48,486 bases of DNA from Deltaproteobacteria bacterium (GCA_030623035.1 JAUXFK010000001.1:1-48486); one strand, 5' to 3'. Shown: positions 9,791 through 46,426, numbered from the stretch's first letter. Made by a program: numbers and translations. The notes: a model not told the origin generated them from the sequence alone.

Positions 9791-9913
9791 CTTTCCAAAT
9801 GCCCCTTTTTTTACCAATCGTGTCATTAAATTTGTACAGAAATCTTCCTTGGGTTATAGATATTCGGGAGCTTCGAAAAATTATCCCAAGTCGTTTAGAA
9901 TACATCTTTAACC

Positions 9914-10238
9914 GTAACTACTCAGGTTGTCAGGTTCAAGCCTGCCCTGGCGCTGTTTACTATGCATTCCCATCATTACTATGCTGACAATATCCCAGGT
10001 GCTCTACAATGAGCCAGGGAAGCCAGGTCTGGGCCAGGGGTTCACAGTTCACGGTTGGGAGCATCCAGTGCAACAAAGAGTTCACTCTGGACTTCCGTGC
10101 AAGACAGCGTTGCGTATCACAAGAACTGCCTGCCTGTAGTGGACCCAGACAGGGATGAACTCCGCATTCGTCTCGGAATCAAACCCCTCTTTCATCAGTT
10201 TAACCTTGAACTCCGGAACTTTGAACCTGAGTAGTTAC
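9914..10238 (+). mobile_element. MITE type C, 325 bp, perfect 15-bp terminal inverted repeats (TIRs) and an 8-bp target-site duplication (TSD)
   Basis: GTAACTACTCAGGTT (9914..9928) is the exact reverse complement of AACCTGAGTAGTTAC (10224..10238). CTTTAACC flanks both ends directly (9906..9913 and 10239..10246). There is no convincing ORF. It is GC-richer than its surroundings. Confidence 0.75.
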
Positions 10239-10465
10239 CTTTAACCCATCTAAGGATCTGTTCCAGGAATTTTCTTAAACTCGTCCAGAGGGTCTAATAC
10301 CAATTTGCAAACTAATTAATATGATACAAGAGAGGATTCTGAGGCGGTAACCGTATTTACTCTTAGTTGTTAAGGAGGTTTTAAGGATGTATAAAGGAAT
10401 GCGCAAAAGATATTATCCGATAATTGAAAAACCATTGATGCTGGAAAACTTGGGCAGGTGCGCGC

Positions 10466-11746
10466 TTGTCTATTAGAAATAATAAAAAAGAACCGGAGTT
10501 TTTCTATGGCTGGGTCATCTTAGGAGCCTGCTTTGCCACGACAACCATGGTGGGCGGATTATACTATTCATTTGGGATATTTTTTACACCATTATTAGAG
10601 GAATTTGGCTGGAGCCGGGCTTTGGTCTCATCAGTAGGCACGGTTAATTTGCTCGCATTTGCTTTTTCTTCTATGTTGTTTGGCAGATTGATTGACCGAT
10701 ATGGCCCCAGGATAATCCTTGCATGCAGTGCTGTTATCATCGGTCTTGGATATGCCCTTTGCAGCCAGGTGAACTCCATCTTTCAATTATACCTGTTCTA
10801 TATTATAGCCTCTCTAGGATCAGGGCCTACATGGGTATTGCCCACTTCCATAGTGCAGCGATGGTTTGTAAAGAGGAGAGGTTTTACCCTCGCGCTGGTT
10901 ACTACCGGCATCGGTTTTGGAGCCTTGATCTTTTCCCCGATATTGAACCATATTATCTATACATATGGTTGGCGTGTAAGCTATATAATCCTGGGTATTC
11001 TTACTTGGCTTATCCTGACTGGGGCGTCTGTTGTTATGGTGGCTGATCCTGAAGAAAAGGGGATGAAGCCTTATGGCGAGGAAGAGTTAGTGGCCGATAT
11101 GGCCAGCAGCAAAACGACAGATTATCAATCAACAGAGTCTGTGTCCATGGTGTCAAAAACCGTGGAATGGGGGGTCGATGAAGCGATAAGAACAAAGGCT
11201 TTCTGGGGTCTCGTTGTATTGTATATGTTTGGCCTTTTTCCAATATATATGCTTGCAATGCATATCGTTCCTCACGCAATTGATATGGGGATTTCAGAGG
11301 GAGTGGCCGCTGGAGCCTTAGGCCTTATCGGTGCTACCAGTATCGCCGGCCGGCTGCTGGGGGGTGCTATTGCAGAAAGGCTTGGTTGGACGAAAGGCCT
11401 GGCATTATCCTGTTTTCTCACCAGCCTATCGGTATTTTGGCTCATCGCAATCCACAATGCCTGGATGCTCTACGTGTTTGTTGTTACATATGGCCTTTTC
11501 TATGGATCAAGGGTACCGCAGTTTCCTGGTATCGTTGGCTTTTTTTTTGGAAGCACCTCTCTTGCTTCGCTTATTGGCCTTTGCCATGGCCTATCAATCC
11601 TTGGCAGTGCCGTGGCCCCTGTTGTCGCCGGATTGATTTTTGATAAAACAGGGAGCTATACTGTAGCCTTTTTAATAGCGGGCATCGCTTCTTTCATTGC
11701 TGGAGTTCTGGCACTGTTGCTGAAGCCACCGAAGAAAAAGAGTTGA
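10466..11746 (+). CDS. MFS transporter, oxalate/formate-antiporter-like
   Basis: 426 aa with about 12 predicted hydrophobic helices and a central hydrophilic loop. FGRLIDRYGPR MFS loop motif. TTG start is the most upstream in-frame start. Confidence 0.85.
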   Translation: MSIRNNKKEPEFFYGWVILGACFATTTMVGGLYYSFGIFFTPLLEEFGWSRALVSSVGTVNLLAFAFSSMLFGRLIDRYGPRIILACSAVIIGLGYALCSQVNSIFQLYLFYIIASLGSGPTWVLPTSIVQRWFVKRRGFTLALVTTGIGFGALIFSPILNHIIYTYGWRVSYIILGILTWLILTGASVVMVADPEEKGMKPYGEEELVADMASSKTTDYQSTESVSMVSKTVEWGVDEAIRTKAFWGLVVLYMFGLFPIYMLAMHIVPHAIDMGISEGVAAGALGLIGATSIAGRLLGGAIAERLGWTKGLALSCFLTSLSVFWLIAIHNAWMLYVFVVTYGLFYGSRVPQFPGIVGFFFGSTSLASLIGLCHGLSILGSAVAPVVAGLIFDKTGSYTVAFLIAGIASFIAGVLALLLKPPKKKS

Positions 11747-11768
11747 CCTGCAACCCCATCACTTTCCT

Positions 11769-12935
11769 TTATCTATTTCGATAATTATAGGGTAGGTATT
11801 CCCTGCCGAAGATTTCGCGCTGTACTACCAGTTTCGATACCTGAGAGGTGCCATCAGCGATCTCAACCGCCATTACGTCTCGTAATCTCTGCTCTAACGG
11901 AAATTCCTGGGTATAACCGTAATGCCCGTGAAGGACAAGACAGTCTCGAATGGCATTCGTTGAGAATCGGGGAGCCATCCATTTAACCATCCCTGCCACT
12001 TTTGAGGTGGACATTCCCTGATCACGCATCCACAGGCCCTTATAGCAGAGCAATCGTACGGCCTCGAGGATACTGATATGCTCAACAATCGGAAATGAAA
12101 CACCTTCAAATGTTGCCAGGGGTCTGTCAAACGCGATTCTTTGCGTGGTATGCCTTATCGTTTCTTCCAGTGATACCATGGCCGGTGCTATCCCCTCCAG
12201 GGATAAGAGTATCCGGCTGACATCAAAGCCCTGCATGCCCATTTTGAATCCTGTACCCTCTTGTCCAATCATGTAATCTTCCGGAATTTCAACATCCTCC
12301 ATAAATATAGAACCCCGGGTTATTCCTTTACAGCCCATGTCTTCATAAGATTGACGCGTAATACCAGGCAAATCAGTGGGGACGACAAAACAACTGACCC
12401 CCCTTGCACCGGCATCTGGATCGGTCTTTGCAAATACCAATGCAATGTCCGCATCCATCATCGCTGTAATTCCTGATTTTTCACCATTCAAAATGTAAGC
12501 GGCCCCTTTCTGAATCGCCCTCGTTCTCATTGCTACAGCATCAGTACCAGCCCCGGGTTCTGTCATGCAAAAGGCAGGAATCGTATCCCCTGATAAAAAG
12601 GGCTCAAGAAACTCCTTTCTGATCCTTTCATTACCCTGTTCCAGCAATACGGCACACAGATGTCCGACAACAAAGGTGGACATTGTCAAACTGCAGTCCC
12701 CCTTGGACACCTCTTCCGTAATCAATCCTTCAGCCACGTGGGATACACCCATACCCCCTTTATCAGGCGATACTGAACTTCCTAAGAGTCCTAATTCACC
12801 CATTTTTTTGTTGATATTACGGGGAAATTTACATTCACGGTCCCATTTCGAATAAAAGGGGGCGACTTCTTTTTCTGTAAACTTTCTTACCATATCAGCC
12901 AAGGCCTTCTCTTCGGCAGTAAATTCAAAATCCAT
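11769..12935 (-). CDS. Acyl-CoA dehydrogenase family protein
   Basis: 388 aa with an ACAD N/M/C layout (FTEKEVAP..., CMTEPGAGTD, C-terminal EIADGTSQV). Confidence 0.9.
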   Translation of the reverse strand: MDFEFTAEEKALADMVRKFTEKEVAPFYSKWDRECKFPRNINKKMGELGLLGSSVSPDKGGMGVSHVAEGLITEEVSKGDCSLTMSTFVVGHLCAVLLEQGNERIRKEFLEPFLSGDTIPAFCMTEPGAGTDAVAMRTRAIQKGAAYILNGEKSGITAMMDADIALVFAKTDPDAGARGVSCFVVPTDLPGITRQSYEDMGCKGITRGSIFMEDVEIPEDYMIGQEGTGFKMGMQGFDVSRILLSLEGIAPAMVSLEETIRHTTQRIAFDRPLATFEGVSFPIVEHISILEAVRLLCYKGLWMRDQGMSTSKVAGMVKWMAPRFSTNAIRDCLVLHGHYGYTQEFPLEQRLRDVMAVEIADGTSQVSKLVVQREIFGREYLPYNYRNR

Positions 12936-13755: not shown

Positions 13756-14233
13756 TGGCTTAACCCATTTATTGGCAGGTTATGTTGGTAGTCAACGTTG
13801 GCTAAAAGGGGGCCGGTTAACCCTCTTTCTCATTGGCTGCCTTTTGCCCGATATCCTTGCAAGAGGGGGTCGGCTGTTTTTTATGGGGCATCTCCAGATT
13901 GATTTTATCGAATTGTATATAGTGACTTTACATACTCCCTTTACCTGTTTATTCCTTTGTTTGGCAATCGTTCAACTCTTCAACTCTCGTTTTCAAAGAG
14001 AAGCTTTCATGCTTTTGTATTCAGGATCCATGGTGCACTTCGTACTCGATTCCTTACAGCGCACCATAACGGGTTTTGGCTTTACAAGAGAGTTGTTAGA
14101 TGGTTATCATTGGCTCTATCCGTTCAGTTGGTACGATTTTCAGTTTGGGCTTTTCTGGCCAAAAGATGCTCTTTTTGCCTTGATTCTTCTCTTGCCTCTA
14201 TCGCTCTTGTTTTTTTTGCGAAAAAAACGTTGA
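13748..14233 (+). CDS. Membrane-bound metal-dependent hydrolase-like protein (YdjM/DUF457-like)
   Basis: 161 aa. N-terminal MPDGLTHLLAG and LPDIL motifs, several transmembrane segments. Confidence 0.5.
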   Translation: MPDGLTHLLAGYVGSQRWLKGGRLTLFLIGCLLPDILARGGRLFFMGHLQIDFIELYIVTLHTPFTCLFLCLAIVQLFNSRFQREAFMLLYSGSMVHFVLDSLQRTITGFGFTRELLDGYHWLYPFSWYDFQFGLFWPKDALFALILLLPLSLLFFLRKKR

Positions 14234-14441
14234 GTTGATTGTATAGGAATGGTATTTACCCATCTTAGAGGAAAACATCGGGTTTATCAAAGACTAAATG
14301 GGGGCGAAATCACTCCTTATATCCTGTTAGTTTCTCTGCTTTTTCCCCATAAAAAACTCTTTACAATCCCCATGTGTATTGATAGGTTTACACAAAAGTC
14401 GTAAATTTGCCGGCATGAGAAAATGAAAGGGGGTATCTACG

Positions 14442-15263
14442 TTGCAAAGTAAGATATCGACTGCTATTCGGCTGAAATATCCTCCGGTCGCTCTGCTCTG
14501 GTCTGATAAAAGTCCTGAAAAGCCCATTCAATTTAAGAAAGGAAGATGGGGCTGTGTCATGTGGCTCATAGCGAGCGCTGCAAAGAGAAAAACATCAGCT
14601 TGTGATAGGGAAACATTCGGTTGTTTTGGCGGCGGGGTTGGACTCGGTTTTGGAAATCAATATAAAAACTTTCCCGGCGGTGAGGAATGCTTTTGTCATT
14701 TTCTTTCATCGGGTAACGAACTATGGGAAACAGGCCGACAAACGGCCGATATGGTAAAATCATTTTTAAAAGATGAAACATATGAGCATTTTGTTCATGG
14801 TGAGCGCTATCTCAAGACTCCAAAACGGGTCAAAAAATTCATCGAATACCTCCCCATTACCGACATTCCTGCGAAATATGTTGTATTCAAATCGTTAGAT
14901 TCCGTAAACAGTGAGAATGAAACTCCTCAATCGATTATATTCTTCACAGATCCTGATCAACTGTCTGCATTAGTTGTACTTGCTAACTATGGTCGATGGG
15001 ACAACGAGAATGTCATCATTCCGTATGCTGCCGGTTGCCAGACTATCGGCATCTATCCGTATCAAGAAGCAAAAGCTGAAAAGCAGCGTGCTGTGGTAGG
15101 GCTTACGGATCTTTCAGCACGCGTGTATATCCGCAAACAGCTTGGTGACAATTTGATGACTTTCACGGTGCCCCTGGCCATGTTCCAGGAGATGGAAGGA
15201 AATGTTGAAGGATCCTTCCTCGAAAGATCCACATGGCAGAGTTTACTCAAAATGAAGGGGTAA
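14442..15263 (+). CDS. DUF169-like protein
   Basis: 273 aa. TTG start preceded by GAAAGGGGG. Cys/Gly-rich core (WGCVMW...FGCFGGGVGLGFG) resembles the DUF169 family. Assigned from memory only. Confidence 0.5.
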   Translation: MQSKISTAIRLKYPPVALLWSDKSPEKPIQFKKGRWGCVMWLIASAAKRKTSACDRETFGCFGGGVGLGFGNQYKNFPGGEECFCHFLSSGNELWETGRQTADMVKSFLKDETYEHFVHGERYLKTPKRVKKFIEYLPITDIPAKYVVFKSLDSVNSENETPQSIIFFTDPDQLSALVVLANYGRWDNENVIIPYAAGCQTIGIYPYQEAKAEKQRAVVGLTDLSARVYIRKQLGDNLMTFTVPLAMFQEMEGNVEGSFLERSTWQSLLKMKG

Positions 15264-15528
15264 TCCGTTGAAAAATGTGTGCGTTGGAGGAGCGCCCGAA
15301 GGGCGTCTGTTCAACTCGCATGGTGTATGCCCGGCATGGGCGTGTGCTTATGGGGTGAAACCACCTGTATGTGAACCCTGTTAATGTGTTGAACACATTA
15401 ACAAAAGTACTAGCCGAAGGCAAGGGTATTATAGTGAGGTAAGAGGGAGGGGCGTCCTCTACATTTAGTTGGGGGCTCTTGAACTGCCAAGGTTACAATT
15501 GCGGGGTCGATGCGACCTCGACAATGCT

Positions 15529-15960
15529 TTACAGTTTAGAAGGAAGTACAACAACCGTTGTTCCTGGGGTTGTCTTATTGCCTTTTTTATCCTCAGTCCA
15601 TATCTCACACTCTACTATATGCTCTTCGCCTTGAACATATTTCTTGGTGATTTTGCCTTTGCAGACGATATCTTCACCGGGCATATCATTTCCTCTGTAA
15701 TTACATGCAAGCCTTTTCAGCTTACCCTTATCCCCGATCCATTCTGTCATGAGTTGTCCAAGAAAAGCCGCTTTTAGACGGCCGTGGAGGATAACATCAG
15801 GAAAACCAAGGTTTGTTGCATAATCTTTATCATAGTGCAGCTCATTTAAGTCACCGGATGCCACTGCCCATTTAACTAACTGTCGTTTTGTTGGATGTTT
15901 GGTAAGGGGTGGGATATCTGAGCCTACCTTGACGTCTTCATAAAATAACTGGCTTGACAT
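15529..15960 (-). CDS. MaoC-like (R)-specific enoyl-CoA hydratase, hotdog fold, catalytic subunit
   Basis: 143 aa with the hydratase-2 motif SGDLNELHYDKDYA. Confidence 0.85.
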   Translation of the reverse strand: MSSQLFYEDVKVGSDIPPLTKHPTKRQLVKWAVASGDLNELHYDKDYATNLGFPDVILHGRLKAAFLGQLMTEWIGDKGKLKRLACNYRGNDMPGEDIVCKGKITKKYVQGEEHIVECEIWTEDKKGNKTTPGTTVVVLPSKL

Positions 15961-23135: not shown

Positions 23136-24638
23136 ATGTTGAATATGAAGAGAGGAATGCGAATCTGTTTAATTTTTGTCATTATTTTTTGTCTGCCTCT
23201 ATCCGGCAAATTATATGCTGCTGCTTATCTTTATATATCAAACAGCGGTGAGGATACTCTAACCGTAATAAGCAATCTTGAAAACGAGGTGATTGATACG
23301 GTTGAGGTCGGTAGGGGGCCGATGGGGTTGGCAGTTACCCCTGAGGGAGATTATGTATATGTGGCGAATAGTATGGATGGAACCGTATCCGTAATTCGCA
23401 CAACGGACAACTCTGTCATTGAAACAGTCGAAGTCGGTGCTTCTCCAATGGGGGTAGTTATCTCCCCAGAGGGAGATTATGTATATGTGGCGAATAGCGC
23501 AGATGGAACCGTATCCGTAATCCGCACAACGGACAACTCTGTCACTGAGACTGTTGAAGTCGGCAATGGCCCATGGGATGTGGCCGTCACTTCTGGTGGC
23601 ATTTATGTATTTGTGACAAATAAAACGGATGGCACAGTGTCTATGATCCGCATTGAAGATAATACCATTGTCAATACGATTGAAGTAGGGAGCAATCCAC
23701 TTGGAATCACAGTCGGTCTGGATGGCGATTATATTTATGTGGCGAATAACTCAGATAATACAGTTTCACTAATCAGTACGACTTACTATACTGTCATAGA
23801 GACGATAGCTGTTGGCAACGGCCCATGGGGGGTGGCTGCAACAAATGACAAAGAATATATTTATGTAGTAAACAACGAGGATAACACAGTGTCGAAGATA
23901 AGGATTTTCGATTATTCTACGACTCTTTTTGCGGTAGGTAACGCACCGGTAGGTCTTGGCAGTTTTTTAGGCGGTCGGTCACCAGAACCCCCCAGTGACC
24001 TTGAGGCAACGGAAAAATCCTATAAAAGGATAGACCTTTCCTGGACTGACAACTCTTCTGATGAATTTGGGTTCAAAATCGAAAGAAAAGCAGGATCAAA
24101 TGGGGAATACATTCGGATAGCGGCTTTAGATGAGAATGTCACCACATATTCTGACACAGGACTCAGTTATTATAGGACCTATTATTATCGTATAACCTCA
24201 TACAATGACGTAGCCGATTCAGATTATACAAACGAAGCATACGCAACTACCGAAGATTACGAGACAGAGTGTTTTTTCGTCACAGTGGCTTACGGTTCAC
24301 CTTTTAACAGACATATCCGAATAATTCGTGGTTTCCGTGACAGGTACTTGATGTCAAACGCACTGGGAAAGGCCTTCGTTGATATCTATTATGCCTTAAG
24401 CCCAAAGGCAGCCCACTTCATCAGCAGGCATGATTCAATGCGTACCTCGCTTCAGTTCGCCCTTATCCCCTTAGTTTGGCTTTGTTGGCTGTCTCTAAAT
24501 ATAAACCAGACATCCACTATTGCATTTATCTTATTGTTGCTTGTACTGTCTTATGCTGCTTTTTTAAAGAATTTGTATCATTTTAAAACTATCAGCAAGC
24601 TTCAACGACGGTCAAATTTTAATGCGTGTAATGTTTGA
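23136..24638 (+). CDS. Secreted YVTN-type beta-propeller repeat protein with Fn3 domain and a C-terminal CF..AYGSP / transmembrane anchor domain
   Basis: Signal peptide MKRGMRICLIFVIIFCLPLSG. About 6 repeats of ~42 aa (YVYVANSxDGTVSVI...VEVG). Fn3-like segment (PSDLEATEK...YYYRITSYN). C-terminal ECFFVTVAYGSP...FRDRYL...YYALSP plus a hydrophobic helix. Confidence 0.8.
   Translation: MLNMKRGMRICLIFVIIFCLPLSGKLYAAAYLYISNSGEDTLTVISNLENEVIDTVEVGRGPMGLAVTPEGDYVYVANSMDGTVSVIRTTDNSVIETVEVGASPMGVVISPEGDYVYVANSADGTVSVIRTTDNSVTETVEVGNGPWDVAVTSGGIYVFVTNKTDGTVSMIRIEDNTIVNTIEVGSNPLGITVGLDGDYIYVANNSDNTVSLISTTYYTVIETIAVGNGPWGVAATNDKEYIYVVNNEDNTVSKIRIFDYSTTLFAVGNAPVGLGSFLGGRSPEPPSDLEATEKSYKRIDLSWTDNSSDEFGFKIERKAGSNGEYIRIAALDENVTTYSDTGLSYYRTYYYRITSYNDVADSDYTNEAYATTEDYETECFFVTVAYGSPFNRHIRIIRGFRDRYLMSNALGKAFVDIYYALSPKAAHFISRHDSMRTSLQFALIPLVWLCWLSLNINQTSTIAFILLLLVLSYAAFLKNLYHFKTISKLQRRSNFNACNV
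23343..23594 (+). repeat. Near-identical tandem duplication, 2 x 126 bp, inside the propeller CDS
   Basis: GAGGGAGATTATGTATATGTGGCGAATAG...ACAACGGACAACTCTGTCA recurs with a 126-nt period (42 aa, one blade) and only a few substitutions. Confidence 0.85.
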
Positions 24639-24690
24639 GCGTCTAACTGAGCGTTAAGAAAGAAGAGGGGGGAAAAGACCCATTTATGGA
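24575..24690 (-). mobile_element. Truncated MITE type B fragment (GTATCATTTTA end plus internal ~80 bp)
   Basis: Begins GTATCATTTTA like the 25346 end of the full copy. 24591..24670 is ~94% identical to 25377..25456. No second terminus is present. Confidence 0.6.
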
Positions 24691-24717
24691 TGTAAACTTG
24701 TTAAATGGGAGGTGGCC

Positions 24718-25345: not shown

Positions 25346-25615
25346 GTATCATTTTAGCGTTATGAAATAGAAGGCTATCATCAAGCTTCAACGACGGTCA
25401 AATTTTAATGCGTGGATTGTCTGAGCGTCTAACTGAGCGTTAAGAAAGAACAGGGGATAAACCCACCTATTATATCTGGAATAGGTCATAATGGAGCTAC
25501 TGAATTGAATAGTTATATACTGTTCTTTCTTTACGCTTACTTGGATGCGAGTTTTACACGGATTAAAATTTGATTGCCGCTTTTTGCAACTCTTTTCAAA
25601 AAGCTAAACTGTTAC
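25346..25615 (-). mobile_element. MITE type B, long form (270 bp) with a perfect 8-bp TSD
   Basis: Termini are GTATCATTTTAGC... and ...GCTAAACTGTTAC (11/13 inverted match). AATTACCT is present at 25338..25345 and 25616..25623. Long imperfect internal palindrome (25384..25456 versus 25520..25590). Confidence 0.8.
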
Positions 25616-25651: not shown

Positions 25652-26950
25652 ATGAAAGAGCGCGCGATTAAACTGAAGTATGGTAAGAAAAATCTTTCTT
25701 TCCATATCCATTCTGAAAACCTATTGGGGGTTATTAAATCAGAAGAAGTTCCAATTCCGAAAGATACGGATAGACTTATTAAATCGGCATTGAACGCCCC
25801 TTTCAATGGTCCCCCTTTTGATTATTTTTTCCAAAAAGGAGAGAGGGTAACTGTAATTGTCTCCGATGTCACCCGTTACACAGCATCTCATATATTCCTT
25901 CCCATCCTCATTGATAGGTTGAATAATGCGGGTATAAACTATGACGATATCAGGGTCGTTGTTGCCCTGGGAATCCATCGGCAGCAGTCACCCAAGGAAC
26001 TCAGAATGATCGTTGGAGATGAAGTTTATAAAAAAGTCAGAGTATATAATCATAATGCGTTTGATTCAAAGCGTCTTACTTATTTAGGTAGAACCGATAG
26101 CGGTATAAAAGTTGAAATAAACACTCTGGTGGCTGATAGTGATAAAATCCTTTTGACCGGAAGTATAGGTTTTCATTATCTGGCCGGTTTTGGAGGGGGC
26201 AGGAAGAGCATATTGCCTGGCGTAGCTTCGTTTGATAGCTGTGTGGATGCACACCTTCTGGTTTTAAACCCGCCGAAACTCGGAGGAAGGCATCCGATGG
26301 CAACAACTGGTGTGTTAAACGGCAATCCGTTTCATGAGCTTATGATTGAGGCTTGTGAGATGTTATGCCCTAAGTTTCTCTTCAATACAATCCTTTCCTC
26401 AAATAGAGAGATTTTGAAAATTGTCTCAGGGGATTATGTATCAGCCCATTTGCAAGGGTGTGACTTTCTTTTAGATAATTTTAGCCCTGAACTTGAGGAA
26501 AAGGCCGATCTTATTATCGTAAGCAGCGGTGGCTTCCCCAAGGATATCAACTTTATTCAGGCCCATAAGAGCATCGATCATTCGATAAATGCCCTTAAAG
26601 AAAATGGTGTGATGATCGTTCTTGCAAGATGTCAAGAGGGCTTTGGCAATCCGACCTTCCTTGATTGGTTTCAATATGATGATTTAATGGATTTTGAAAG
26701 GGCATTAAGAAAAAACTTTGAAATCAACGGCCAGACAGCTTACTCTACTTTAATAAAGGCAAAGAGGGCAAGGATTATCATTGTCTCTGAACTGGATGAT
26801 GAGGATGTAAAGAGAATGTCCATGGTTCCGGCAGATACAATCGACCAGGCGCTATCTATAGCGTATGATATACTGGGAGATAAGCCTTCTACATATGTTA
26901 TCCCTGATGGAGGGTTTGTATTTCCAAGAGTAACCCCGAATAAAGGATAG
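25652..26950 (+). CDS. larA: LarA-family nickel-pincer-dependent 2-hydroxyacid racemase/epimerase (DUF2088)
   Basis: 432 aa. VSDVTR, ALGIHRQQ and GGGRKSILPG motifs are typical of lactate racemase homologues. Confidence 0.8.
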   Translation: MKERAIKLKYGKKNLSFHIHSENLLGVIKSEEVPIPKDTDRLIKSALNAPFNGPPFDYFFQKGERVTVIVSDVTRYTASHIFLPILIDRLNNAGINYDDIRVVVALGIHRQQSPKELRMIVGDEVYKKVRVYNHNAFDSKRLTYLGRTDSGIKVEINTLVADSDKILLTGSIGFHYLAGFGGGRKSILPGVASFDSCVDAHLLVLNPPKLGGRHPMATTGVLNGNPFHELMIEACEMLCPKFLFNTILSSNREILKIVSGDYVSAHLQGCDFLLDNFSPELEEKADLIIVSSGGFPKDINFIQAHKSIDHSINALKENGVMIVLARCQEGFGNPTFLDWFQYDDLMDFERALRKNFEINGQTAYSTLIKAKRARIIIVSELDDEDVKRMSMVPADTIDQALSIAYDILGDKPSTYVIPDGGFVFPRVTPNKG

Positions 26951-28330: not shown

Positions 28331-28686
28331 TTGTTATCATTTAATACCTCTTCTACTTTATCTAGTAAATCAAATACCTTGAAAGGCTTTTGGAGGGCAC
28401 CGTTGACTTGAATTCTCTTAAGTTCTTTTGAGTGTTTTCCGATATCATAGCCTGTTATTACAATTGTTTTAATCTCTCCTCTGGCTATCTTAAGCTTTTC
28501 TATCGTTTCCAATCCATCCATACCAGGCAGACCAATATCTACAATATAGAGATCATACCTTTTATCCTTTTCCAAAGCTTTAAAACCATCTTTGACGATT
28601 TCAACTGCATAATCACCCAGGATCTCACAGTAGAGTCTTCCTAGATATTCCTCATCTTCTATTATCAGGATACTTGGTGTCTTCAT
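28327..28686 (-). CDS. Stand-alone response-regulator receiver domain
   Basis: 119 aa. IIEDEE, DLYIVDIGLPGMDG, QKPF. Confidence 0.85.
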   Translation of the reverse strand: MKTPSILIIEDEEYLGRLYCEILGDYAVEIVKDGFKALEKDKRYDLYIVDIGLPGMDGLETIEKLKIARGEIKTIVITGYDIGKHSKELKRIQVNGALQKPFKVFDLLDKVEEVLNDNN

Positions 28687-28720
28687 CTTTGCGCTTTTTA
28701 AGGTTCATATTTTTCTATTC

Positions 28721-28838
28721 GTAATTGTTTAACTATCTTAAGTAGCTATTGAGATTTTATGATTTGAATAATCTTTTCCTCAGGATTTGAGTTATTTTGT
28801 TAAAGACCATCCAAATCATTATTTGGCTAAACAGTTAC
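28721..28838 (-). mobile_element. MITE type A (118 bp), no recognisable TSD
   Basis: Termini GTAATTGTTTAAC ... GGCTAAACAGTTAC. The interior is collinear (reverse orientation) with 29605..29753. Flanks TTCTATTC and GAATTTTT do not match. Confidence 0.65.
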
Positions 28839-28863
28839 GAATTTTTTCATTTCTCAGGCTAAA

Positions 28864-29433
28864 CTATTTAAAGAGTAACAATTCAACCATTTCACAGATA
28901 ATATGACCGACTGTAATATGGACTTCCTGTATGCGAGGAGTGCTGTTAGAGGGTACATTTAATGAGATATCTACAATATTGGCAATCTTTCCCCCGTCTT
29001 TACCGGTCATTCCGACTGTCTTTATACCCAATTTCTTCCCGGTATGTAATGCCTTGATGACATTTTCAGAATCTCCGCTTGTGCTGAGCCCAAAAGCGAC
29101 ATCGCCCTCTTTACCCAGAGCCTTTATCTGTTTGGAAAATATATGAGAGAAATCCGAGTCATTGGATATACTTGTAATTACAGATGTATCTGTAGTCAAC
29201 GCAATGGCAGGTAGAGGAGGCCTATCGATTACAAAACGGTTTATAAACTCAGCAGCAATATGCTGGGCATCAGCAGCACTTCCCCCGTTGCCAAACAGGA
29301 TAATCTTGTTTCCCTGGTTTATAGCATCAGTAACTGTTTCCACTGTCTTGATGATCTCGTCGATATTTTTTTTTGCAAACATTACTTTTAAATCAGCGCT
29401 TTCCAAAAAACTCTGGATAATTTTATCCTTCAT
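28864..29433 (-). CDS. gmhA: SIS-domain phosphoheptose isomerase (GmhA/DiaA family)
   Basis: 189 aa. GNGGSAADAQH and STSGDSENV motifs. Confidence 0.85.
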   Translation of the reverse strand: MKDKIIQSFLESADLKVMFAKKNIDEIIKTVETVTDAINQGNKIILFGNGGSAADAQHIAAEFINRFVIDRPPLPAIALTTDTSVITSISNDSDFSHIFSKQIKALGKEGDVAFGLSTSGDSENVIKALHTGKKLGIKTVGMTGKDGGKIANIVDISLNVPSNSTPRIQEVHITVGHIICEMVELLLFK

Positions 29434-29604: not shown

Positions 29605-29753
29605 ATAACTGTTTCGCCAGATAATGATTTGTATGGTCTTTGACGAACATTTTTGAGTTATTTTGTTGAAGATTCAAGGTGACTCAAATCGTGAGGAAAA
29701 GACGATTCAAATCATAAAATCTCGTTAGCTCCTTAAGATGGCTAAACAATCAC
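29605..29753 (+). mobile_element. MITE type A (149 bp) with a perfect 8-bp TSD
   Basis: ATAACTGTTTCGCC...GGCTAAACAATCAC termini. AAGATAAG lies directly on both sides (29597..29604 and 29754..29761). Confidence 0.85.
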
Positions 29754-29804: not shown

Positions 29805-29883
29805 GTAACAGTTTAGCTTTTTGAAATTTGATTGCCGTTGAAGCTTGGCGAGTGCTTTTTGTTTCATAAGGCTAAAATAGTAC
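29805..29883 (+). mobile_element. MITE type B, short deletion derivative (79 bp) with a perfect 8-bp TSD
   Basis: GTAACAGTTTAGCTTTTTGAAA...GGCTAAAATAGTAC. AAATATTC is present at 29797..29804 and 29884..29891. Confidence 0.85.
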
Positions 29884-30220
29884 AAATATTCTTATCGCAA
29901 CTCTAAAACTCCCTCGTGCACTTTCCTCTTTTGTGGAGGGGCACTAACTAATCATGATATCTATGGAAATTTTAATTTGATGGTTAAAAAAGGTTTGCAA
30001 TTTCTGTGTAATTAAGTTATAAGCTAAGCTTGTTAATTATTGGGTTATTGCTCAAATCCTTTTTTGCTTTGCCCAGATAAATTTCTTGATAAATCCATTG
30101 TTCGTTCCAGTCGTTTTCAAAACTCTCTCTGTGGGCTCAAGGAATTGAGATTTATCTAAGAGAAAGTGTTTTGATGATTTTGTATAATAATTTTTGTTTG
30201 GGTAAAATGGCCTTTTATGG

Positions 30221-31336
30221 ATGGATACGAAAAAGTTTAATAATAAGGTAGACCACAATCTGAATTTGCAGGGTGAATTAGGTGTTTTGCGGGAAAAAAT
30301 AGACCAGATCGATACAGAAATCCTCGATTTGCTCAATGAAAGAGCAAAAAAAGCAATCAAAATCGCAAAAACCAAAATCGCAAATAAGATGGAATTTTAT
30401 GCACCAGATAGAGAGCTCAAGATTTATGAGAGACTTGTAAATATAAACAAAGGTCCTTTTCCAGACAGAGCGATTAAGCCTGTCTTCAAAGAGATAATCT
30501 CTGCTTCTTTATCCCTTGAGAAACCTATTCATGTTGCATACTTAGGTCCAAAAGCAACATTTACCCACCTTGCGAGTATCAGTCATTTTGGTCAGTCATC
30601 CAATTTTGTTCAGAAAAGAAATATCCCTGAAATTTTCTCTGAAGTGGAAAGGGACAGGGTCGATTTTGGAGTTGTCCCTATAGAGAATTCGACAGAAGGG
30701 GTGGTCAGCAACACCCTGGACATGTTTATAGAATCAAACCTGAAAATATGCGCAGAAATTTTACTAGAGATATCTCATCACCTCATGTCAAAGACAGGCA
30801 AGATGGAGGACATTGAGAAAGTATACTCCCATCCTCATGCGATCGCCCAATGTAGAAACTGGCTGGATCGTAACCTTCCAAATATACCTATTATCGATGT
30901 AGCAAGCACCGCTTTAGCAGCTAAGAGTGCATCAGATGACCATTCAGTAGCTGCAATTGCCAGCGAGTATGCTGCATCTTGCTATGATTTAAAAATAGTA
31001 AAGAGAAAGACAGAGGATAATATCAACAATTTCACCAGATTTTTAGTGATTGGCAAAAGAGAGCCTGAAAAAAGCGGTAATGATAAAATATCGATTATGT
31101 TTTCCATTAAGGATGAGGTCGGGATTTTATATAGAATGCTTGAACCCTTTGCAAAAAACAATGTGAATCTAACGAAGATTGAATCTAGACCTCTCAAGAA
31201 AAAAGCCTGGGAATATATGTTCTTCTTGGACTTAGAGGGTCACATATCTGATAAAAATGTGAAAAAGGCATTAGAAGAATTGGATAAAAAATCTCTGTTT
31301 TTAAAGGTGTTGGGTTCCTATCCAAGGAGCAATTGA
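30221..31336 (+). CDS. pheA: Bifunctional chorismate mutase / prephenate dehydratase (P-protein)
   Basis: 371 aa. N-terminal CM helix (LREKIDQIDTEILDLLNERA), PDT domain (VAYLGPKATFTH, ENSTEGVV) and a C-terminal ACT domain. Confidence 0.9.
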   Translation: MDTKKFNNKVDHNLNLQGELGVLREKIDQIDTEILDLLNERAKKAIKIAKTKIANKMEFYAPDRELKIYERLVNINKGPFPDRAIKPVFKEIISASLSLEKPIHVAYLGPKATFTHLASISHFGQSSNFVQKRNIPEIFSEVERDRVDFGVVPIENSTEGVVSNTLDMFIESNLKICAEILLEISHHLMSKTGKMEDIEKVYSHPHAIAQCRNWLDRNLPNIPIIDVASTALAAKSASDDHSVAAIASEYAASCYDLKIVKRKTEDNINNFTRFLVIGKREPEKSGNDKISIMFSIKDEVGILYRMLEPFAKNNVNLTKIESRPLKKKAWEYMFFLDLEGHISDKNVKKALEELDKKSLFLKVLGSYPRSN

Positions 31337-36279: not shown

Positions 36280-36280
36280 A

Positions 36281-39615: not shown

Positions 39616-39811
39616 TTTTCATCTCCTTTGATGATTATAAAGTTAACTCTAAAGAATAGACTCCCTATTTATGGTAGGTTACAGATTTGACAGTTAGATA
39701 GGGCATAGATTTTCTTGGAATTGGCCATTGATCTTTTTCTTTTATTTTATTAAATCCTTTAATTTCAATTGGTTAGTATTCAGAGATATAGTTATAATCA
39801 TTTCTCCTTTT

Positions 39812-39881
39812 GTAACTGTTTAACCAAATAATGATTTGGATGGTCTTTGACGAGCATTTTTGAGTTATTTTGTTAAAGATG
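39812..39881 (+). mobile_element. MITE type A, left-end fragment
   Basis: GTAACTGTTTAACCAAATAATGATTTGGATGGTCTTTGACGAGCATTTTTGAGTTATTTTGTTAAAGAT is collinear with the first ~70 nt of 29605..29753. The right terminus is absent. Confidence 0.6.
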
Positions 39882-39984
39882 TCTTTCCCTGTTTGTAGAC
39901 ATCTGTTGAATTCGTTGGCGATATGTATGCTTCATCCAAGGCGACATAGAGCTTGCCTCGCCTGAACGAGAGCGATAGCGGGAG

Positions 39985-40081
39985 AAGGCCTGGACTTCCG
40001 TGCAAGACCGCCTGGCGTAGCATTCAGTACGATCGTGCTGGAGCAGGTGTTAACCCTGGAACTTCGATCCTGATTAGTTAC
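39985..40081 (+). mobile_element. MITE type C, right-hand partial copy
   Basis: Shares CTGGACTTCCGTGCAAGAC (19/19), GTTAACCCTGGAACT and the terminus CCTGATTAGTTAC with 10087..10238. No TSD or left TIR is present. Confidence 0.55.
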
Positions 40082-43123: not shown

Positions 43124-43133
43124 TACAAAACCA

Positions 43134-44723: not shown

Positions 44724-44746
44724 TTAAAAGGAAGTTTTGTTAAAGG

Positions 44747-45178
44747 TCAAGGAAGGTGGAGCCCCGATGCCTTCTTTATTACTTCCAGTGTAATCTCAGG
44801 CAGATCATAGCCTGCCAACTCTGAGAACATGACAGCCCGGGCATCAAGGACATCGGAGTTTGACCTTAATCTTCCGGATTTATATTTACAAAGAAAGTCT
44901 ACAAGAACGTAGTGGTATTTTACTCGTTTGTCCTCACTTTTGATTATTGGGTCTACGACTTTTACGATTTGGAGGACATCTACATCGATATTCGTCTCTT
45001 CGTAGATCTCCCTTTTGACTGCTTCCTCCATGTTTTCGCCTAATTTCACTGCACCACCAGGGATACCCCATTTTCCATATCCTGGTTCTTTTCCTCTCTT
45101 CACCAATACGACCTTATCATCCCAAAAGACGACACCACCTACGCCCAGTATCGGGTAATCAGGGTATTCTCTTCTCAT
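44747..45178 (-). CDS. NUDIX hydrolase
   Basis: Nudix box GGAVKLGENMEEAVKREIYEETN. Confidence 0.85.
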   Translation of the reverse strand: MRREYPDYPILGVGGVVFWDDKVVLVKRGKEPGYGKWGIPGGAVKLGENMEEAVKREIYEETNIDVDVLQIVKVVDPIIKSEDKRVKYHYVLVDFLCKYKSGRLRSNSDVLDARAVMFSELAGYDLPEITLEVIKKASGLHLP

Positions 45179-45213
45179 AGCAGCCCTTCTTTAGTTTACA
45201 TATAGATATATTT

Positions 45214-45285
45214 GTAACAGTTTAGCTTTTTGAAATTTTAGTCACTAAAGCGGCAATCACATGATAACCCATGCAAAACTCGCGA
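45214..45285 (+). mobile_element. MITE type B, left-end fragment
   Basis: GTAACAGTTTAGCTTTTTGAAA...AAAGCGGCAATCA...AAAACTCGC is collinear with the 25615-side ~72 nt of the long copy. No right terminus was found. Confidence 0.55.
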
Positions 45286-45414
45286 CAAAAAATTCTTTGA
45301 TCGGTCATCAAAATGTTTTTTGTAAATAAATCCTGGCCCGTTGTTTCTCAGGATAAATTCATCGGAAGGTCTGCGATTTCAATTGTTTGAGGTTCTAACG
45401 TTCTTTGCCATATA

Positions 45415-46065
45415 TTAATCAGAGCCAGTATAAATAACAGCAAGGATAAAGGTCGGTTCATTTCTGTTTGAGGTTACCAAATGGGGGATTTTTGAGAGAT
45501 AATAGATCGTATCCCCTGTAGTTAAGATGTCTACTTTTTCTCCCAGTCTTACCTTCATTTCTCCGTCTAAAACAAAGAGAAACTCTTCCCCATCATGTGT
45601 TGACAGTTTTTGGTCGGGGGTTTCTGGTTCTAGCTTTACAATAAAGGATTCCATGTGTCTGTCCTTTACATCGGAGGCAAGAGATATATAAGTATAATTA
45701 TGCCCTTCTTGCGATGTTGATCGCGAGATTACCTTCCTTTCATCATGCCGCACTATAGAGCAAGTTCTTTCTCCTTCTTCTGCTGTGAGTGTTCCAAAGA
45801 CTGTTTTTAAGGACTTGGAAAGTTTTATTATCGTTCCGATCTGTGGGGAAACGGTTTGGTCTTCTATTTGGGATAGCAACTCAACGGGGAAACCCGTCTT
45901 CGTAGAAAGTTCTTCAAGGGATATCCCCTTTGTTTCTCTTATCCTCTTAATCCTCTCTCCAGCAGATTCAACGATATCCGGGCTTGTATAATCCTCGAAG
46001 TGTTCTGTTAACTCTTTTAAAAAGTGTTGGTATCTTTTGCTCTCTTCTCCTGGCATGGAAATCAA
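45415..46065 (-). CDS. XRE-family HTH plus cupin-domain transcriptional regulator
   Basis: 216 aa. HTH (IKRIRETKGISLEELSTKTG) and a C-terminal cupin (HDGEEFLFVLDGEM). Confidence 0.85.
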   Translation of the reverse strand: MISMPGEESKRYQHFLKELTEHFEDYTSPDIVESAGERIKRIRETKGISLEELSTKTGFPVELLSQIEDQTVSPQIGTIIKLSKSLKTVFGTLTAEEGERTCSIVRHDERKVISRSTSQEGHNYTYISLASDVKDRHMESFIVKLEPETPDQKLSTHDGEEFLFVLDGEMKVRLGEKVDILTTGDTIYYLSKIPHLVTSNRNEPTFILAVIYTGSD

Positions 46066-46086
46066 TCTCCTAAAAGTTTATAATAC

Positions 46087-46160
46087 GTAACAGTTTAGCT
46101 TTTTTAAATTTTAGTTGAAGCTGTTTTGATGCCGTCTATTTCATAAATCTAAAATGATAC
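46087..46160 (+). mobile_element. MITE type B, short derivative (74 bp) with a perfect 8-bp TSD
   Basis: GTAACAGTTTAGCTTTTTTAAA...CTAAAATGATAC. TATAATAC is present at 46079..46086 and 46161..46168. Confidence 0.85.
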
Positions 46161-46184
46161 TATAATACGAATCATCTGTATCTT

Positions 46185-46274
46185 GTAACTGTTTAGCCAG
46201 ATAATGACTTGGATAGTCAAAGACAATTCAAATAATAAAATCTTGAAAGCTTCTTAAGATGGCTAAACAATTAC
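46185..46274 (+). mobile_element. MITE type A (90 bp, internally deleted) with a 7/8 TSD
   Basis: GTAACTGTTTAGCC...GGCTAAACAATTAC (13/14 TIR). Flanks are TGTATCTT and TGTATATT. Confidence 0.8.
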
Positions 46275-46426
46275 TGTATATTTTATTTAGTGTATTTGTT
46301 GAAGAAAGTCAATCAAATTCCTTATGGATATAAGGGGTAGCGACAATAAGCAATTGATTTCTTAAGTTTACTGATATATGTTATTCAAATAGAATTTGTC
46401 AACAACGAAAAGAATGGAGATACAAA

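What the first reader, a model, noticed from the sequence alone, without database searches (positions are those of the whole stretch)
9906..46282. Dense, previously unannotated MITE superfamily with GTAAC...GTTAC termini and 8-bp target-site duplications; no transposase in the window
At least 11 copies or fragments of three related non-coding element types sit in intergenic DNA, and all begin GTAAC and end GTTAC (or a near variant). Six copies have flanking 8-bp direct repeats that I could read off directly. These are: 9914..10238 (CTTTAACC), 25346..25615 (AATTACCT), 29605..29753 (AAGATAAG), 29805..29883 (AAATATTC), 46087..46160 (TATAATAC) and 46185..46274 (TGTATCTT/TGTATATT). Five perfect 8-mers placed exactly at TIR boundaries cannot reasonably be chance. 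The duplications all differ and are AT-rich, as expected for independent transposition events. That is roughly one element per 4-5 kb, very high for a bacterial chromosome. Termini starting GTAA together with an 8-bp duplication are the hallmarks I recall for the IS66 family. No tnpA/B/C-like ORF or any other transposase lies within these 48 kb, so the mobilising enzyme must act in trans.
Basis: partly seen in the sequence, partly recalled or inferred. Interest (0 to 1): 0.8.

Follow-up and report, generated by a model that had tools for sequence, protein, structure and literature searches.

The report
New MITE family from IS66-type transposons
The intergenic DNA of this uncultured sulfate-reducer-type bacterium carries many tiny, gene-less transposons (MITEs) whose ends match single-gene IS66-family insertion sequences; the family is real and widespread in sediment bacteria, and I found no prior description of it, but it is an ordinary kind of mobile DNA.

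Summary
The window is a whole 48,486-nt contig of an uncultured Thermodesulfobacteriota MAG. It holds 10 loci (11 pieces) of three non-coding element types with GTAAC…GTTAC termini. Six are flanked by 8-bp direct repeats, five of them perfect.

A sister species (85-89% nt identity) has precise empty sites, each with a single copy of the 8-mer, for four of the elements. It also carries its own insertions where the window is empty.

They gave 95 non-redundant complete elements of 72-327 bp and none longer. Of 106 end pairs chosen without regard to flanks, 73 have an 8-bp duplication with at most one mismatch. Shifted registers give 0-2.

The IS66 idea holds, narrowed to the single-ORF ISBst12 group. 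Fourteen autonomous elements whose ends I read myself have termini of the form GTAAC-T/A-N-Y-T-Y-AG and mostly perfect 8-bp duplications; six of their transposases were scanned and all carry DDE_Tnp_IS66. They match type A at 14/15 positions and type C at 12/13.

No matching transposase was found in about 70 kb of this genome or in 1.3 Mb of MITE-bearing loci. No within-species polymorphism was seen.

Verdict: a new member of a known kind, of moderate interest.

The parts
9914..10238 (.). Type A MITE, 325 bp. TIR GTAACTACTCAGGTT is perfect over 15 nt. TSD CTTTAACC lies at 9906-9913 and 10239-10246. It sits between a CoA-transferase gene and an MFS transporter gene.
   Evidence: The TIR matches the B. 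thuringiensis pLM4 IS66 element at 14/15 positions, and the first 13 nt equal the right end of the Pseudanabaena plasmid IS. Other copies at more than 90% identity exist in JGI metagenomes. There is no protein-family signal in any frame.
24575..24675 (+). Old fragment of the left part of a C-long element. It supplies the last ~21 codons and the stop codon of the beta-propeller gene 23136-24638.
   Evidence: It is 92% identical to 25375-25461. A decayed counterpart lies at the same place in the sister species (L002 8941-9052, 70% identity), so the insertion predates the species split.
25346..25615 (-). Type C-long MITE, 270 bp. Ends are GTATCATTTTAGC and GTAACAGTTTAGC. TSD AATTACCT is perfect. 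It lies 37 nt upstream of the LarA-like gene.
   Evidence: It folds into a long hairpin, -88.5 kcal/mol, z = -7.7. The sister species has a different, related C-like element at this site.
28721..28838 (-). Type B MITE, 118 bp, with no TSD. It sits where the sister species has a cyclophilin-like gene.
   Evidence: The hairpin has z = -4.8. The lack of a TSD fits an adjacent deletion.
29605..29753 (+). Type B MITE, 149 bp, TSD AAGATAAG perfect. There is a precise empty site in the sister species.
   Evidence: Hairpin z = -4.3.
29805..29883 (+). Type C-short MITE, 79 bp, TSD AAATATTC perfect. There is a precise empty site in the sister species.
39812..40081 (+). Chimera of a B left end (39812-39880) and an A right part (A box at 39990-40022, A end at 40052-40081). 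It has no TSD.
   Evidence: The same A-end/B-end architecture occurs at another locus (L215 1177-1439), also without a TSD. The sister species has a ~85-bp C-like element in this gap instead.
45214..45283 (+). Partial type C element: one end only, plus the inner GCGGCAATC…CTCGC module. The other end is not recognisable.
   Evidence: This part of the gap does not align with the sister species.
46087..46160 (+). Type C-short MITE, 74 bp, TSD TATAATAC perfect. There is a precise empty site in the sister species.
46185..46274 (+). Type B-short MITE, 90 bp, TSD TGTATCTT/TGTATATT (7 of 8). There is a precise empty site in the sister species.
   Evidence: Hairpin z = -4.1.

Best explanation
[quoted passage not shown] They are non-autonomous elements that carry the ends, but not the gene, of single-ORF IS66-family insertion sequences (ISBst12 group).

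Proposed mechanism: a DDE_Tnp_IS66 transposase supplied in trans binds the terminal inverted repeats. The core is GTAAC-W-R-Y-T-Y-AGC, and in the widespread C type the repeat is a 23-bp unit, GTAACAnTTTAGCnnTTTGAAAA. The transposase joins the element to target DNA cut with an 8-bp stagger, preferentially at AT-rich sites of the form nAWWWWTn. Repair of the stagger gives the 8-bp duplication.

Copies accumulate in intergenic DNA, some gaps acting as repeated landing sites, and later decay by nesting, deletion and recombination into chimeras.

Shown here: the ends, the 8-bp duplication, empty versus filled sites between species, multi-copy status, spread across genomes and phyla, and the equivalence of the ends with those of annotated ISBst12-type elements.

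Inferred: that an ISBst12-type transposase is the mobiliser in this lineage, that it acts in trans, and the chemistry of the 8-bp stagger.
For: 1. Anatomy. Six elements have TIRs and 8-bp duplications, five of them perfect. Type B and C-long fold as long hairpins, z = -4 to -7.7. There is no coding signal and no Rfam family.

2. Insertion events. The sister species GCA_034189035.1 aligns colinearly without gaps across 29605-29753, 29805-29883, 46087-46160 and 46185-46274, with a single copy of each 8-mer. Conversely, it carries C-type elements at L217 16348-16453 and 18336-18440 where the window has one copy of the target. An older C fragment is shared by both species.

3. Family-wide evidence. 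There are 95 non-redundant complete elements of 72-327 bp in 1.3 Mb from about 200 loci. Of 106 end pairs chosen blind to flanks, 73 have an 8-bp TSD with at most one mismatch, against 0-2 in shifted registers. The 8-bp register is the only one that fits. The target consensus is nAWWWWTn. Positions 14-23 of the right end were not selected for, yet most are 83-97% conserved.

4. Link to the ISBst12 group.
- ISDge4: GTGACTACTCAGCA / GTAACTGCTCAGCA, 8-bp repeat, 449-aa single transposase, experimentally transposed (PMC12898284).
- Read here, pHTA426 14107-15741: GTATCTATTCAGCCC / GTAACTATTCAGCCC, TSD GACGAGTT, Pfam DDE_Tnp_IS66 at 1.9e-64.
- ISGst1, B. thuringiensis (GTAACTACTCAGCTT; type A is GTAACTACTCAGGTT), Chlorohelix (GTAACAATTCAGCC / GTAACAGTTCAGAC; type C is GTAACAATTTAGCG / GTAACAGTTTAGCC), D. 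wulumuqiensis (GTAACTGCTCAGCA; type B is GTAACTGTTTAGCC), and others.
- Seven more in IMG/VR contigs, six of them with perfect 8-bp TSDs.
- A further MITE family in the same organism has GTAACTATTCAGCCAC, 16 of 16 identical to the ISGst1 left end.
- The asymmetry of GTATC at one end and GTAAC at the other is shared by pHTA426 and the C-type MITEs.
Against: - No ISBst12-type transposase was found in the window, in the ~22 kb flanking it on longer contigs of the same organism, or by tblastn in 1.3 Mb of MITE-bearing loci. The only transposase genes nearby are an IS630-like split gene and an IS110 fragment, and neither fits an 8-bp duplication.
- No element longer than 327 bp with these ends turned up among about 200 loci.
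- Beyond the first 13-16 nt, the 23-bp C-type repeat (…TTTGAAAA) has no counterpart in the autonomous elements examined. The true parent has therefore not been seen.
- No presence/absence polymorphism was seen among contigs from five metagenomes at 99.6-99.9% identity. Copies of one type differ by roughly 8-25% over their aligned parts. Recent activity is not shown.
- Short TIR similarities also exist to an IS256-family element (ISPsy17, PMC3189936).
Confidence: 0.78

Rival explanations
1. They are MITEs, but mobilised by a DDE transposase of another family that also makes 8-9-bp duplications (IS256, IS6, ISL3, IS1595) or by an undescribed family. On this reading the resemblance to IS66 ends is convergent.
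For: No cognate transposase was found. The inner part of the ISPsy17 (IS256) right repeat reads GTATCAGTTT (PMC3189936), which resembles the GTATCAGTTTAGC-type end variants. The C-type TTTGAAAA inner repeat is absent from the IS66 elements examined.
Against: In ISPsy17 the similar stretch starts 4 nt inside the element, whereas in the MITEs the duplication abuts the G of GTAAC. Of the 15 ISBst12-type elements compared (14 read here plus ISDge4 from the literature), 11 start GTAAC at one or both ends, three start GTTAC or GTAAG at both, and one IMG/VR element (L235) has its GTAACTACTCAG repeat 4 nt inside the best-scoring end pair and no matching duplication. Eleven of the 15 have perfect 8-bp duplications. 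Matches to the MITE ends reach 12/13 to 16/16. Among the families tabulated in the literature read here, GTAA ends with 8-bp repeats are given for IS66 (PMC11946415).
Confidence: 0.12
2. They are fossils. The family was mobilised by an ISBst12-type element that has since been lost from this lineage, so the copies are now immobile intergenic relics. Some may have been co-opted, for example as the 3' end of a gene or as hairpins.
For: There is no polymorphism among five same-species assemblies. Copies have diverged, ends have decayed (ATAAC, GTGAT, GTACT), and there are chimeras and fragments without duplications. No transposase was found nearby. One fragment is shared with the sister species and now encodes a gene's C-terminus.
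Against: Four window insertions and at least two sister-species insertions postdate the split of species that are 85-89% identical. Five of six duplications are still perfect. A nested copy has a perfect duplication. Only about 70 kb of the genome was seen, so absence of the transposase cannot be judged.
Confidence: 0.3
3. They are not transposons at all. They could be host-encoded repeated regulatory or structural sequences (REP/BIME-like, small RNA genes, terminators) spread by recombination, or artefacts of metagenome assembly.
For: Hairpin potential is strong. One C-short copy contains a terminator-like stem followed by a T run.
Against: The 8-bp duplications differ at every site, and the sister species has precise empty sites. 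There is no Rfam match. Promoter- and terminator-like sites are not enriched. The same insertions occur in independent assemblies from NCBI, JGI and Logan.
Confidence: 0.02

Closest known systems
ISBst12 group of the IS66 family (single-ORF elements such as ISBst12, ISDge4 and ISGst1, and the pHTA426 copy)
   Same: The terminal sequence GTAAC-T/A-N-Y-T-Y-AG(C) matches the MITE ends at 12/13 to 16/16 positions. Both make an 8-bp target duplication. One end may read GTATC while the other reads GTAAC. Duplications are often AT-rich (PMC12898284).
   Different: Those elements are 1.45-1.8 kb and encode a 449-492-aa DDE_Tnp_IS66 transposase. The elements here are 74-325 bp with no gene. The C-type inner repeat TTTGAAAA and all internal sequence are unrelated to the autonomous elements examined.
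Classical three-ORF IS66 elements (IS66, IS679, ISPsk01, ISPa75)
   Same: Ends start with GTAA, and some with GTAAC (GTAACCGTCCGGGCA in ISPsy43 and ISPa97). They make 8-bp direct repeats (PMC12888890, PMC11946415).
   Different: The usual terminus is GTAAGCG. They carry tnpA, tnpB and tnpC. After position 8 they are much less similar to the MITE ends than the ISBst12 group is.
Chunjie MITE of Geobacter uraniireducens
   Same: A MITE of 178-235 bp in a former 'deltaproteobacterium'. It is AT-rich, forms a strong hairpin, has many intergenic copies, and some copies overlap genes (PMC3184786, PMC10969869).
   Different: Chunjie has 21-bp TIRs and 9-bp direct repeats (for example ACGACCGGT, PMC6042816). 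It is a different family.
IS-derived bacterial MITEs in general (Correia, MITEPsy1 from ISPsy2, MITECca01 from the IS982-family ISCca4)
   Same: The logic is the same: IS ends without the gene, a target duplication of the parent's length, size variants, and partial and nested copies (PMC3189936, PMC9769881, PMC10969869).
   Different: The parent families and duplication lengths differ (TA, 4 nt, and so on). I found no paper linking a MITE to IS66/ISBst12, and none containing these terminal sequences.

Membership tests
MITE (miniature inverted-repeat transposable element) | Short (under ~600 bp) and without coding capacity | tested here: met
   Elements are 74-325 bp in the window and 72-327 bp in 95 elements elsewhere. 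No Pfam signal appears in six-frame translations of type A. blastx against IS66 transposases finds nothing.
MITE (miniature inverted-repeat transposable element) | Terminal inverted repeats | tested here: met
   Type A has a 15-nt perfect TIR, type B about 15 nt, and type C a 23-nt consensus at both ends.
MITE (miniature inverted-repeat transposable element) | Target-site duplication of fixed length flanking independent copies | tested here: met
   The duplication is 8 bp. In the window, 5 are perfect and 1 is 7/8. In the wider set, 73 of 106 have at most one mismatch, against 0-2 in shifted registers.
MITE (miniature inverted-repeat transposable element) | Multi-copy, with empty and filled sites between related genomes | tested here: met
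   There are four precise empty sites in the sister species and two reciprocal ones. About 200 loci were found in the public collections.
MITE (miniature inverted-repeat transposable element) | Mobilised in trans by a transposase encoded elsewhere | not testable with these tools
   No cognate transposase was found in ~70 kb of this genome or in 1.3 Mb of loci. A complete genome or an experiment is needed.
IS66 family, ISBst12 group (as the parent or mobiliser of these MITEs) | Ends begin with 5'-GTAA | tested here: met
   All complete copies begin GTAAC or a one-base variant. The family feature is taken from PMC11946415.
IS66 family, ISBst12 group (as the parent or mobiliser of these MITEs) | 8-bp (8-9) direct target repeats | tested here: met
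   Exactly 8 bp in the MITEs. An 8-bp repeat, perfect or with one mismatch, flanks 12 of the 14 autonomous ISBst12-type elements I read.
IS66 family, ISBst12 group (as the parent or mobiliser of these MITEs) | Terminal repeat sequence alignable with those of bona fide members | tested here: met
   Type A matches the B. thuringiensis IS at 14/15. Type C matches the Chlorohelix IS at 12/13 at each end. Type F matches ISGst1 at 16/16. Type B matches the D. wulumuqiensis IS and ISDge4 at 11/14 (PMC12898284).
IS66 family, ISBst12 group (as the parent or mobiliser of these MITEs) | A DDE_Tnp_IS66 transposase present in the same genome, bounded by the same ends | tested here: inconclusive
   Not found in the DNA available.
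IS66 family, ISBst12 group (as the parent or mobiliser of these MITEs) | Internal MITE sequence derived from the subterminal regions of the parent IS | tested here: not met
   There is no similarity beyond the first 13-16 nt to any of nine autonomous elements compared by blastn and blastx. The direct parent has not been seen, or the elements arose from unrelated DNA flanked by IS-like ends.
Chunjie MITE family (Geobacter) | 9-bp direct repeats and 21-bp TIRs | tested here: not met
   The duplication here is 8 bp, with no support for a 9-bp register. Chunjie's features come from PMC3184786 and PMC6042816.

The most novel reading that the evidence does not exclude
This would be a cross-phylum MITE superfamily (Thermodesulfobacteriota and other 'Deltaproteobacteria', Ca. 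Brocadia, Nitrospinae, Syntrophorhabdus). It has a strongly conserved 23-bp end and multiplies in genomes that have no resident autonomous copy. It would be cross-mobilised by heterologous ISBst12-type transposases arriving transiently on plasmids or phage-like DNA; such elements do occur on plasmids and on IMG/VR contigs. The MITEs, rather than the insertion sequences, would then be the long-lived, horizontally spreading entity. The conserved inner modules of the C-long type might be kept for a host or element function.
Probability: 0.12. Interest if true: 0.6.

Novelty: new member of a known kind. Interest (0 to 1): 0.42.

Why it matters
1. It gives a name and a likely parent to a repeat family that occupies about a fifth of the intergenic DNA here. 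The family recurs in hundreds of loci of anoxic-sediment and groundwater MAGs, where it fragments assemblies; the window ends 27 nt from another copy. Left unannotated, it also produces spurious small ORFs.

2. I found no published MITE attributed to IS66/ISBst12. The transposition mechanism of this family is poorly characterised. A natural set of about 100 minimal substrates with a defined 13-23-bp end and a clear nAWWWWTn target preference would define the cis requirements and give ready-made mini-transposon designs.

3. Empty and filled sites between sister species, and hot-spot gaps with different occupants, make usable markers for strain and species history in uncultured lineages.

4. One fragment now supplies a gene's C-terminus and stop codon, a small example of exaptation.

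None of this changes how transposons are understood.

Tried and rejected
- Looked for an autonomous element next to the ends. I examined ORFs of at least 200 aa within 900 nt of every matched end in 88 genome loci and 120 metagenome loci, by all-against-all blastp, by eye, and with Pfam on the one unexplained ORF. All were host genes: acyl-CoA dehydrogenases, response regulators, AMP ligases, TctA, UvrB, RadA, FtsK and the like.
- Searched all loci for end pairs up to 6 kb apart with a duplication. Nothing was longer than 327 bp.
- Looked for repeated segments of 400 bp or more among the first 91 loci. Only orthologous regions turned up.
- Searched for an IS66 motif recalled from memory (…AH.RR…) in six-frame translations. 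Nothing real.
- Ran tblastn with nine ISBst12-type transposases against 1.3 Mb. Nothing.
- Ran blastn of types A and C-long, and of concatenated ends, against 72,556 plasmids. No match.
- Scanned IMG/VR for the exact 23-nt end. Zero hits.
- Took the 50-aa ORF inside type A as a possible transposase N-terminus and ran a full HMMER search of 1.84 billion representatives. It found only two small ORFs in other type A copies, plus eukaryotic repeat proteins.
- Searched Rfam over the window. No hits.
- Tested for promoter or terminator function of the elements. No enrichment.
- Tried an empty-site test for type A. The sister species' intergenic region at that place is 1.2 kb of unrelated sequence, so no conclusion.
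- Considered IS630 and IS110 as mobilisers because copies lie just outside the window. Rejected, because their known target duplications (TA, or none) do not fit.
- Considered Chunjie as the same family. Rejected on its 9-bp repeats.

Full report
**Source of the window.** A protein of the window (LarA-like, 25652-26950) is on record on a contig of exactly 48,486 nt in NCBI/JGI. Its closest named relatives are Thermodesulfobacteriota MAGs. The window is therefore a whole contig of an uncultured member of that phylum. Independent assemblies of the same species exist in five JGI metagenomes: L001, L092/L232, L220, L230/L231 and L215/L216. They are 99.6-99.9% identical to the window. A sister species, GCA_034189035.1, is 85-90% identical in nucleotides and syntenic over most of the window (L002, L093, L217).

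**Check of the observation.**
- Type A, 9914-10238: a perfect 15-nt TIR GTAACTACTCAGGTT, and CTTTAACC on both sides.
- Type C: 25346-25615 (270 bp, AATTACCT), 29805-29883 (79 bp, AAATATTC) and 46087-46160 (74 bp, TATAATAC).
- Type B: 29605-29753 (149 bp, AAGATAAG) and 46185-46274 (90 bp, TGTATCTT/TGTATATT).
- Sensitive blastn and pattern searches add 28721-28838 (B, no duplication), 39812-40081 (B left half joined to an A right part, no duplication), 45214-45283 (one C end) and 24575-24675 (old C fragment).

The terminal 13-mer occurs 12 times against 1.4 expected by chance. The elements make up 1546 nt, 3.2% of the window and 19% of its intergenic DNA. They sit in 7 of the 18 gaps of at least 150 nt. 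Every ORF of the window has a housekeeping Pfam assignment or none, and there is no transposase.

**Evidence that they inserted.** When each window element and one copy of its 8-mer are removed, the sister species aligns without gaps across two gaps:
- …CAAAAGATAAGCATTTTC…AAATATTCTTATCGC… against L002.
- …TTTATAATACGAATCATCTGTATCTTTTATTTAG… against L093.

These are precise empty sites for four elements. The reverse also occurs. The sister carries C-type elements at L217 16348-16453 and 18336-18440, where the window has a single copy of the target.

Some gaps are repeated landing sites with different occupants in the two species: 25346, and 39630-40076. At 28721 the window element sits where the sister has a cyclophilin-like gene, which explains the missing duplication. 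The C fragment at 24575 is present in decayed form in both species and now provides the last ~21 codons and the stop of the beta-propeller gene. Insertions therefore happened both before and after the species split. No difference in MITE content was seen among the same-species assemblies, so present-day activity is not shown.

**The family beyond this genome.** One degenerate 23-nt pattern covering the B and C left ends was scanned once against GTDB representative genomes and once against JGI metagenomes.

Hits lie in several Thermodesulfobacteriota/'Deltaproteobacteria' MAGs, with a dozen or more hits each in some. They also lie in Ca. Brocadia (including a 2.28-Mb contig), Nitrospinae, Syntrophorhabdus and others. 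Many have a partner end and a duplication.

In the 1.3 Mb collected I found 95 non-redundant complete elements of 72-327 bp, with modes at 171 and 292 bp. When 106 end pairs are picked without looking at the flanks, 44 have perfect 8-bp duplications and 29 have one mismatch. Registers shifted by 1-3 nt give 0-2, and no other duplication length fits.

The duplicated 8-mers show a symmetric AT-rich preference, nAWWWWTn. Both ends share a 23-nt consensus, GTAACAnTTTAGCnnTTTGAAAA. Positions 14-23 of the right end were not selected by my search, yet most are 83-97% conserved. Beyond position 23 conservation vanishes. That is what one expects of a transposase binding site.

**Which transposase.** No transposase gene lies next to any of the ~210 matched ends, and no element longer than 327 bp was found. 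The link to a family therefore had to come from the ends.

Literature: IS66 members have 20-30-bp repeats starting GTAAGCG and make 8-bp direct repeats (PMC11946415). Some start GTAACCGTCC (PMC12888890). ISDge4 of Deinococcus geothermalis is a single-ORF ISBst12-group member that was seen to transpose. It has GTGACTACTCAGCA / GTAACTGCTCAGCA and an 8-bp repeat (PMC12898284).

I then read the ends of annotated elements myself.
- The IS66-like copy on Geobacillus plasmid pHTA426 spans 14107-15741, with GTATCTATTCAGCCC / GTAACTATTCAGCCC and a perfect GACGAGTT duplication. Its 485-aa protein carries DDE_Tnp_IS66 (E = 1.9e-64) and zf-IS66.
- tblastn with that protein found 122 plasmids. I fetched eight hits and could read both ends in seven of them:
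  - ISGst1: GTAACTATTCAGCC, TSD AAAAGAAC.
  - B. thuringiensis pLM4: GTAACTACTCAGCTT.
  - Clostridium estertheticum: GTTACTGCTCAGCC.
  - Ca. Chlorohelix: GTAACAATTCAGCC / GTAACAGTTCAGAC, TSD TTCAATTT.
  - Acaryochloris: GTTACTGCCCAGGC.
  - D. wulumuqiensis: GTAACTGCTCAGCA, TSD TAAAAATC.
  - ISAva2: GTAAGGATTCAGG.
  - For the Pseudanabaena plasmid element only the right end could be read: GTAACTACTCAGGCTGG.
- Seven more in IMG/VR contigs have GTAACTATTCAG…, GTAACTACTTAGG… or GTAACTGTTCAGTC…. Six of them have perfect 8-bp duplications.
- The five further transposases scanned with Pfam (ISGst1, Pseudanabaena, B. thuringiensis, Chlorohelix, D. wulumuqiensis) all have DDE_Tnp_IS66 plus DUF6444. The C. 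estertheticum, Acaryochloris and ISAva2 proteins and the IMG/VR ones were not scanned: they are IS66-annotated in their records or tblastn relatives of the scanned set.

Comparison with the MITE ends:
- Type A (GTAACTACTCAGGTT) matches the Bacillus element at 14/15. Its first 13 nt equal the Pseudanabaena right end.
- The two C ends (GTAACAATTTAGCG / GTAACAGTTTAGCC) match the two Chlorohelix ends at 12/13 each, including the A/G difference at position 7.
- Type B (GTAACTGTTTAGCC) matches the D. wulumuqiensis element and ISDge4 at 11/14.
- A fourth family in the same organism (L231 3456-3773) starts GTAACTATTCAGCCAC, identical over 16 nt to the ISGst1 left end.
- The habit of GTATC at one end and GTAAC at the other is shared by pHTA426 and the C-type MITEs.

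By my own arithmetic, a random 13-mer matches at 12 or more positions with probability about 6e-7. Across the ~100 comparisons made here, that is far below chance.

**Mechanism, and what remains inferred.** The best-supported account is that an ISBst12-type DDE transposase binds the ends and inserts the element at an 8-bp staggered cut in AT-rich intergenic DNA. The MITEs depend on an enzyme encoded elsewhere. The copies then decay.
- Nested insertion: a 64-bp C element with perfect GAAATCAC duplication sits inside the fourth family, L231 3552-3615.
- Internal deletions give size series: B at 68, 90, 118 and 149 bp; C at 64 to 270 bp.
- A/B chimeras without duplications occur at two loci, and there is a rearranged A copy.

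Not shown:
- The transposase in this lineage. The only transposase genes near the window are an IS630-like split gene about 6.7 kb to the left and an IS110 fragment about 3 kb to the right. Neither makes 8-bp duplications.
- The direct parent. None of the autonomous elements examined has the TTTGAAAA inner repeat or any internal similarity to the MITEs.
- Current activity.

Type B and C-long are near-palindromic hairpins (z = -4 to -7.7). Type A is not (z = -2.0). No regulatory role is indicated.

**Comparison and novelty.** The elements work like any IS-derived bacterial MITE. They are not Chunjie, which has 9-bp repeats. In the held literature I found no MITE attributed to IS66/ISBst12, none reported from these lineages, and no paper containing the terminal sequences.

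I file this as a new member of a known kind. It is a new, abundant, cross-phylum MITE superfamily with ISBst12-type ends.

Interest is moderate. The finding is useful for annotation, for assembly, and for studying the poorly understood IS66 transposition, but it would not surprise a specialist.

Noticed in passing
window 2535-2650, 48367-48486 (continues beyond the end), 30198-30232, 44731-44761, 24664-24692; L002 12757-12873; L216 6326-6358; L231 936-970: Another repeat family ('E'). It has boxes CATCCATAAATGGCCCTTTTGCCCAA and CCTTCCTTGACCTTCAACA, and imperfect inverted ends (…CCATCCATAAATGG… / …CATTTCAGGATGG…). In the sister species a copy lies between two convergent genes that overlap by 4 nt in the window, so it also looks mobile. 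Its ends are unrelated to the GTAAC families.
   Followed up: partly
window 39630-39811; L216 2321-2469: A ~180-nt repeat ('D', GATGATTATAAAGTTAACTCTAAAGAATAG…) lies just left of the B/A chimera. It recurs at 80% identity at an unrelated locus of the same organism, next to a rearranged type A copy.
   Followed up: partly
L231 3456-3773 (about 5.3 kb left of window position 1, same organism); L216 5787-6096: A fourth GTAAC-ended MITE family ('F', 238 bp without its guest). Its left end is identical over 16 nt to ISGst1. A 64-bp C-type MITE is nested in it with a perfect GAAATCAC duplication. The outer duplication GTTTTTCA is offset by 2 nt at the right end.
   Followed up: partly
L092 3310-3377 (27 nt beyond window position 48486): A 68-bp type B mini-MITE with perfect duplication AATTATTG lies just past the end of the contig. 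The window probably ends at a repeat-induced assembly break.
   Followed up: yes
window 23217-23893, inside ORF 23136-24638: The beta-propeller gene contains tandem 126-nt repeats. Another assembly of the same species (L001) has one more unit, giving 542 aa against 500 aa.
   Followed up: partly
window 24575-24638: The last ~21 codons and the stop codon of the beta-propeller gene lie in an old C-type MITE fragment that the sister species also carries. This looks like MITE-derived coding sequence.
   Followed up: partly
L231 1460-2411 (about 6.7-7.6 kb left of the window); L092 87-386 (about 3 kb right of the window): An IS630-like transposase split into two ORFs (HTH_32 and DDE_3) and an IS110-family fragment (DEDD_Tnp_IS110) flank the window on longer contigs of the same organism. 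Neither fits the 8-bp duplications.
   Followed up: partly
window 11746-11769 against L217 13877-15134; window 28686-28864 against L002 13239-13643: There are gene-content differences from the sister species next to MITE-bearing gaps. The sister has a HypA-like gene plus two small ORFs, and a cyclophilin-like gene, and both are absent from the window.
   Followed up: no
window 7344-7380: A 37-nt stretch inside the short-chain dehydrogenase gene 6836-7741 is missing from another same-species assembly (L220). This would shift the reading frame there.
   Followed up: no
L215 1177-1439 and window 39812-40081: Two loci carry the same hybrid architecture, a type A end at one side and a type B end at the other, both without target duplications. 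This could be recurrent recombination between neighbouring elements or a hybrid element whose duplications were lost.
   Followed up: partly
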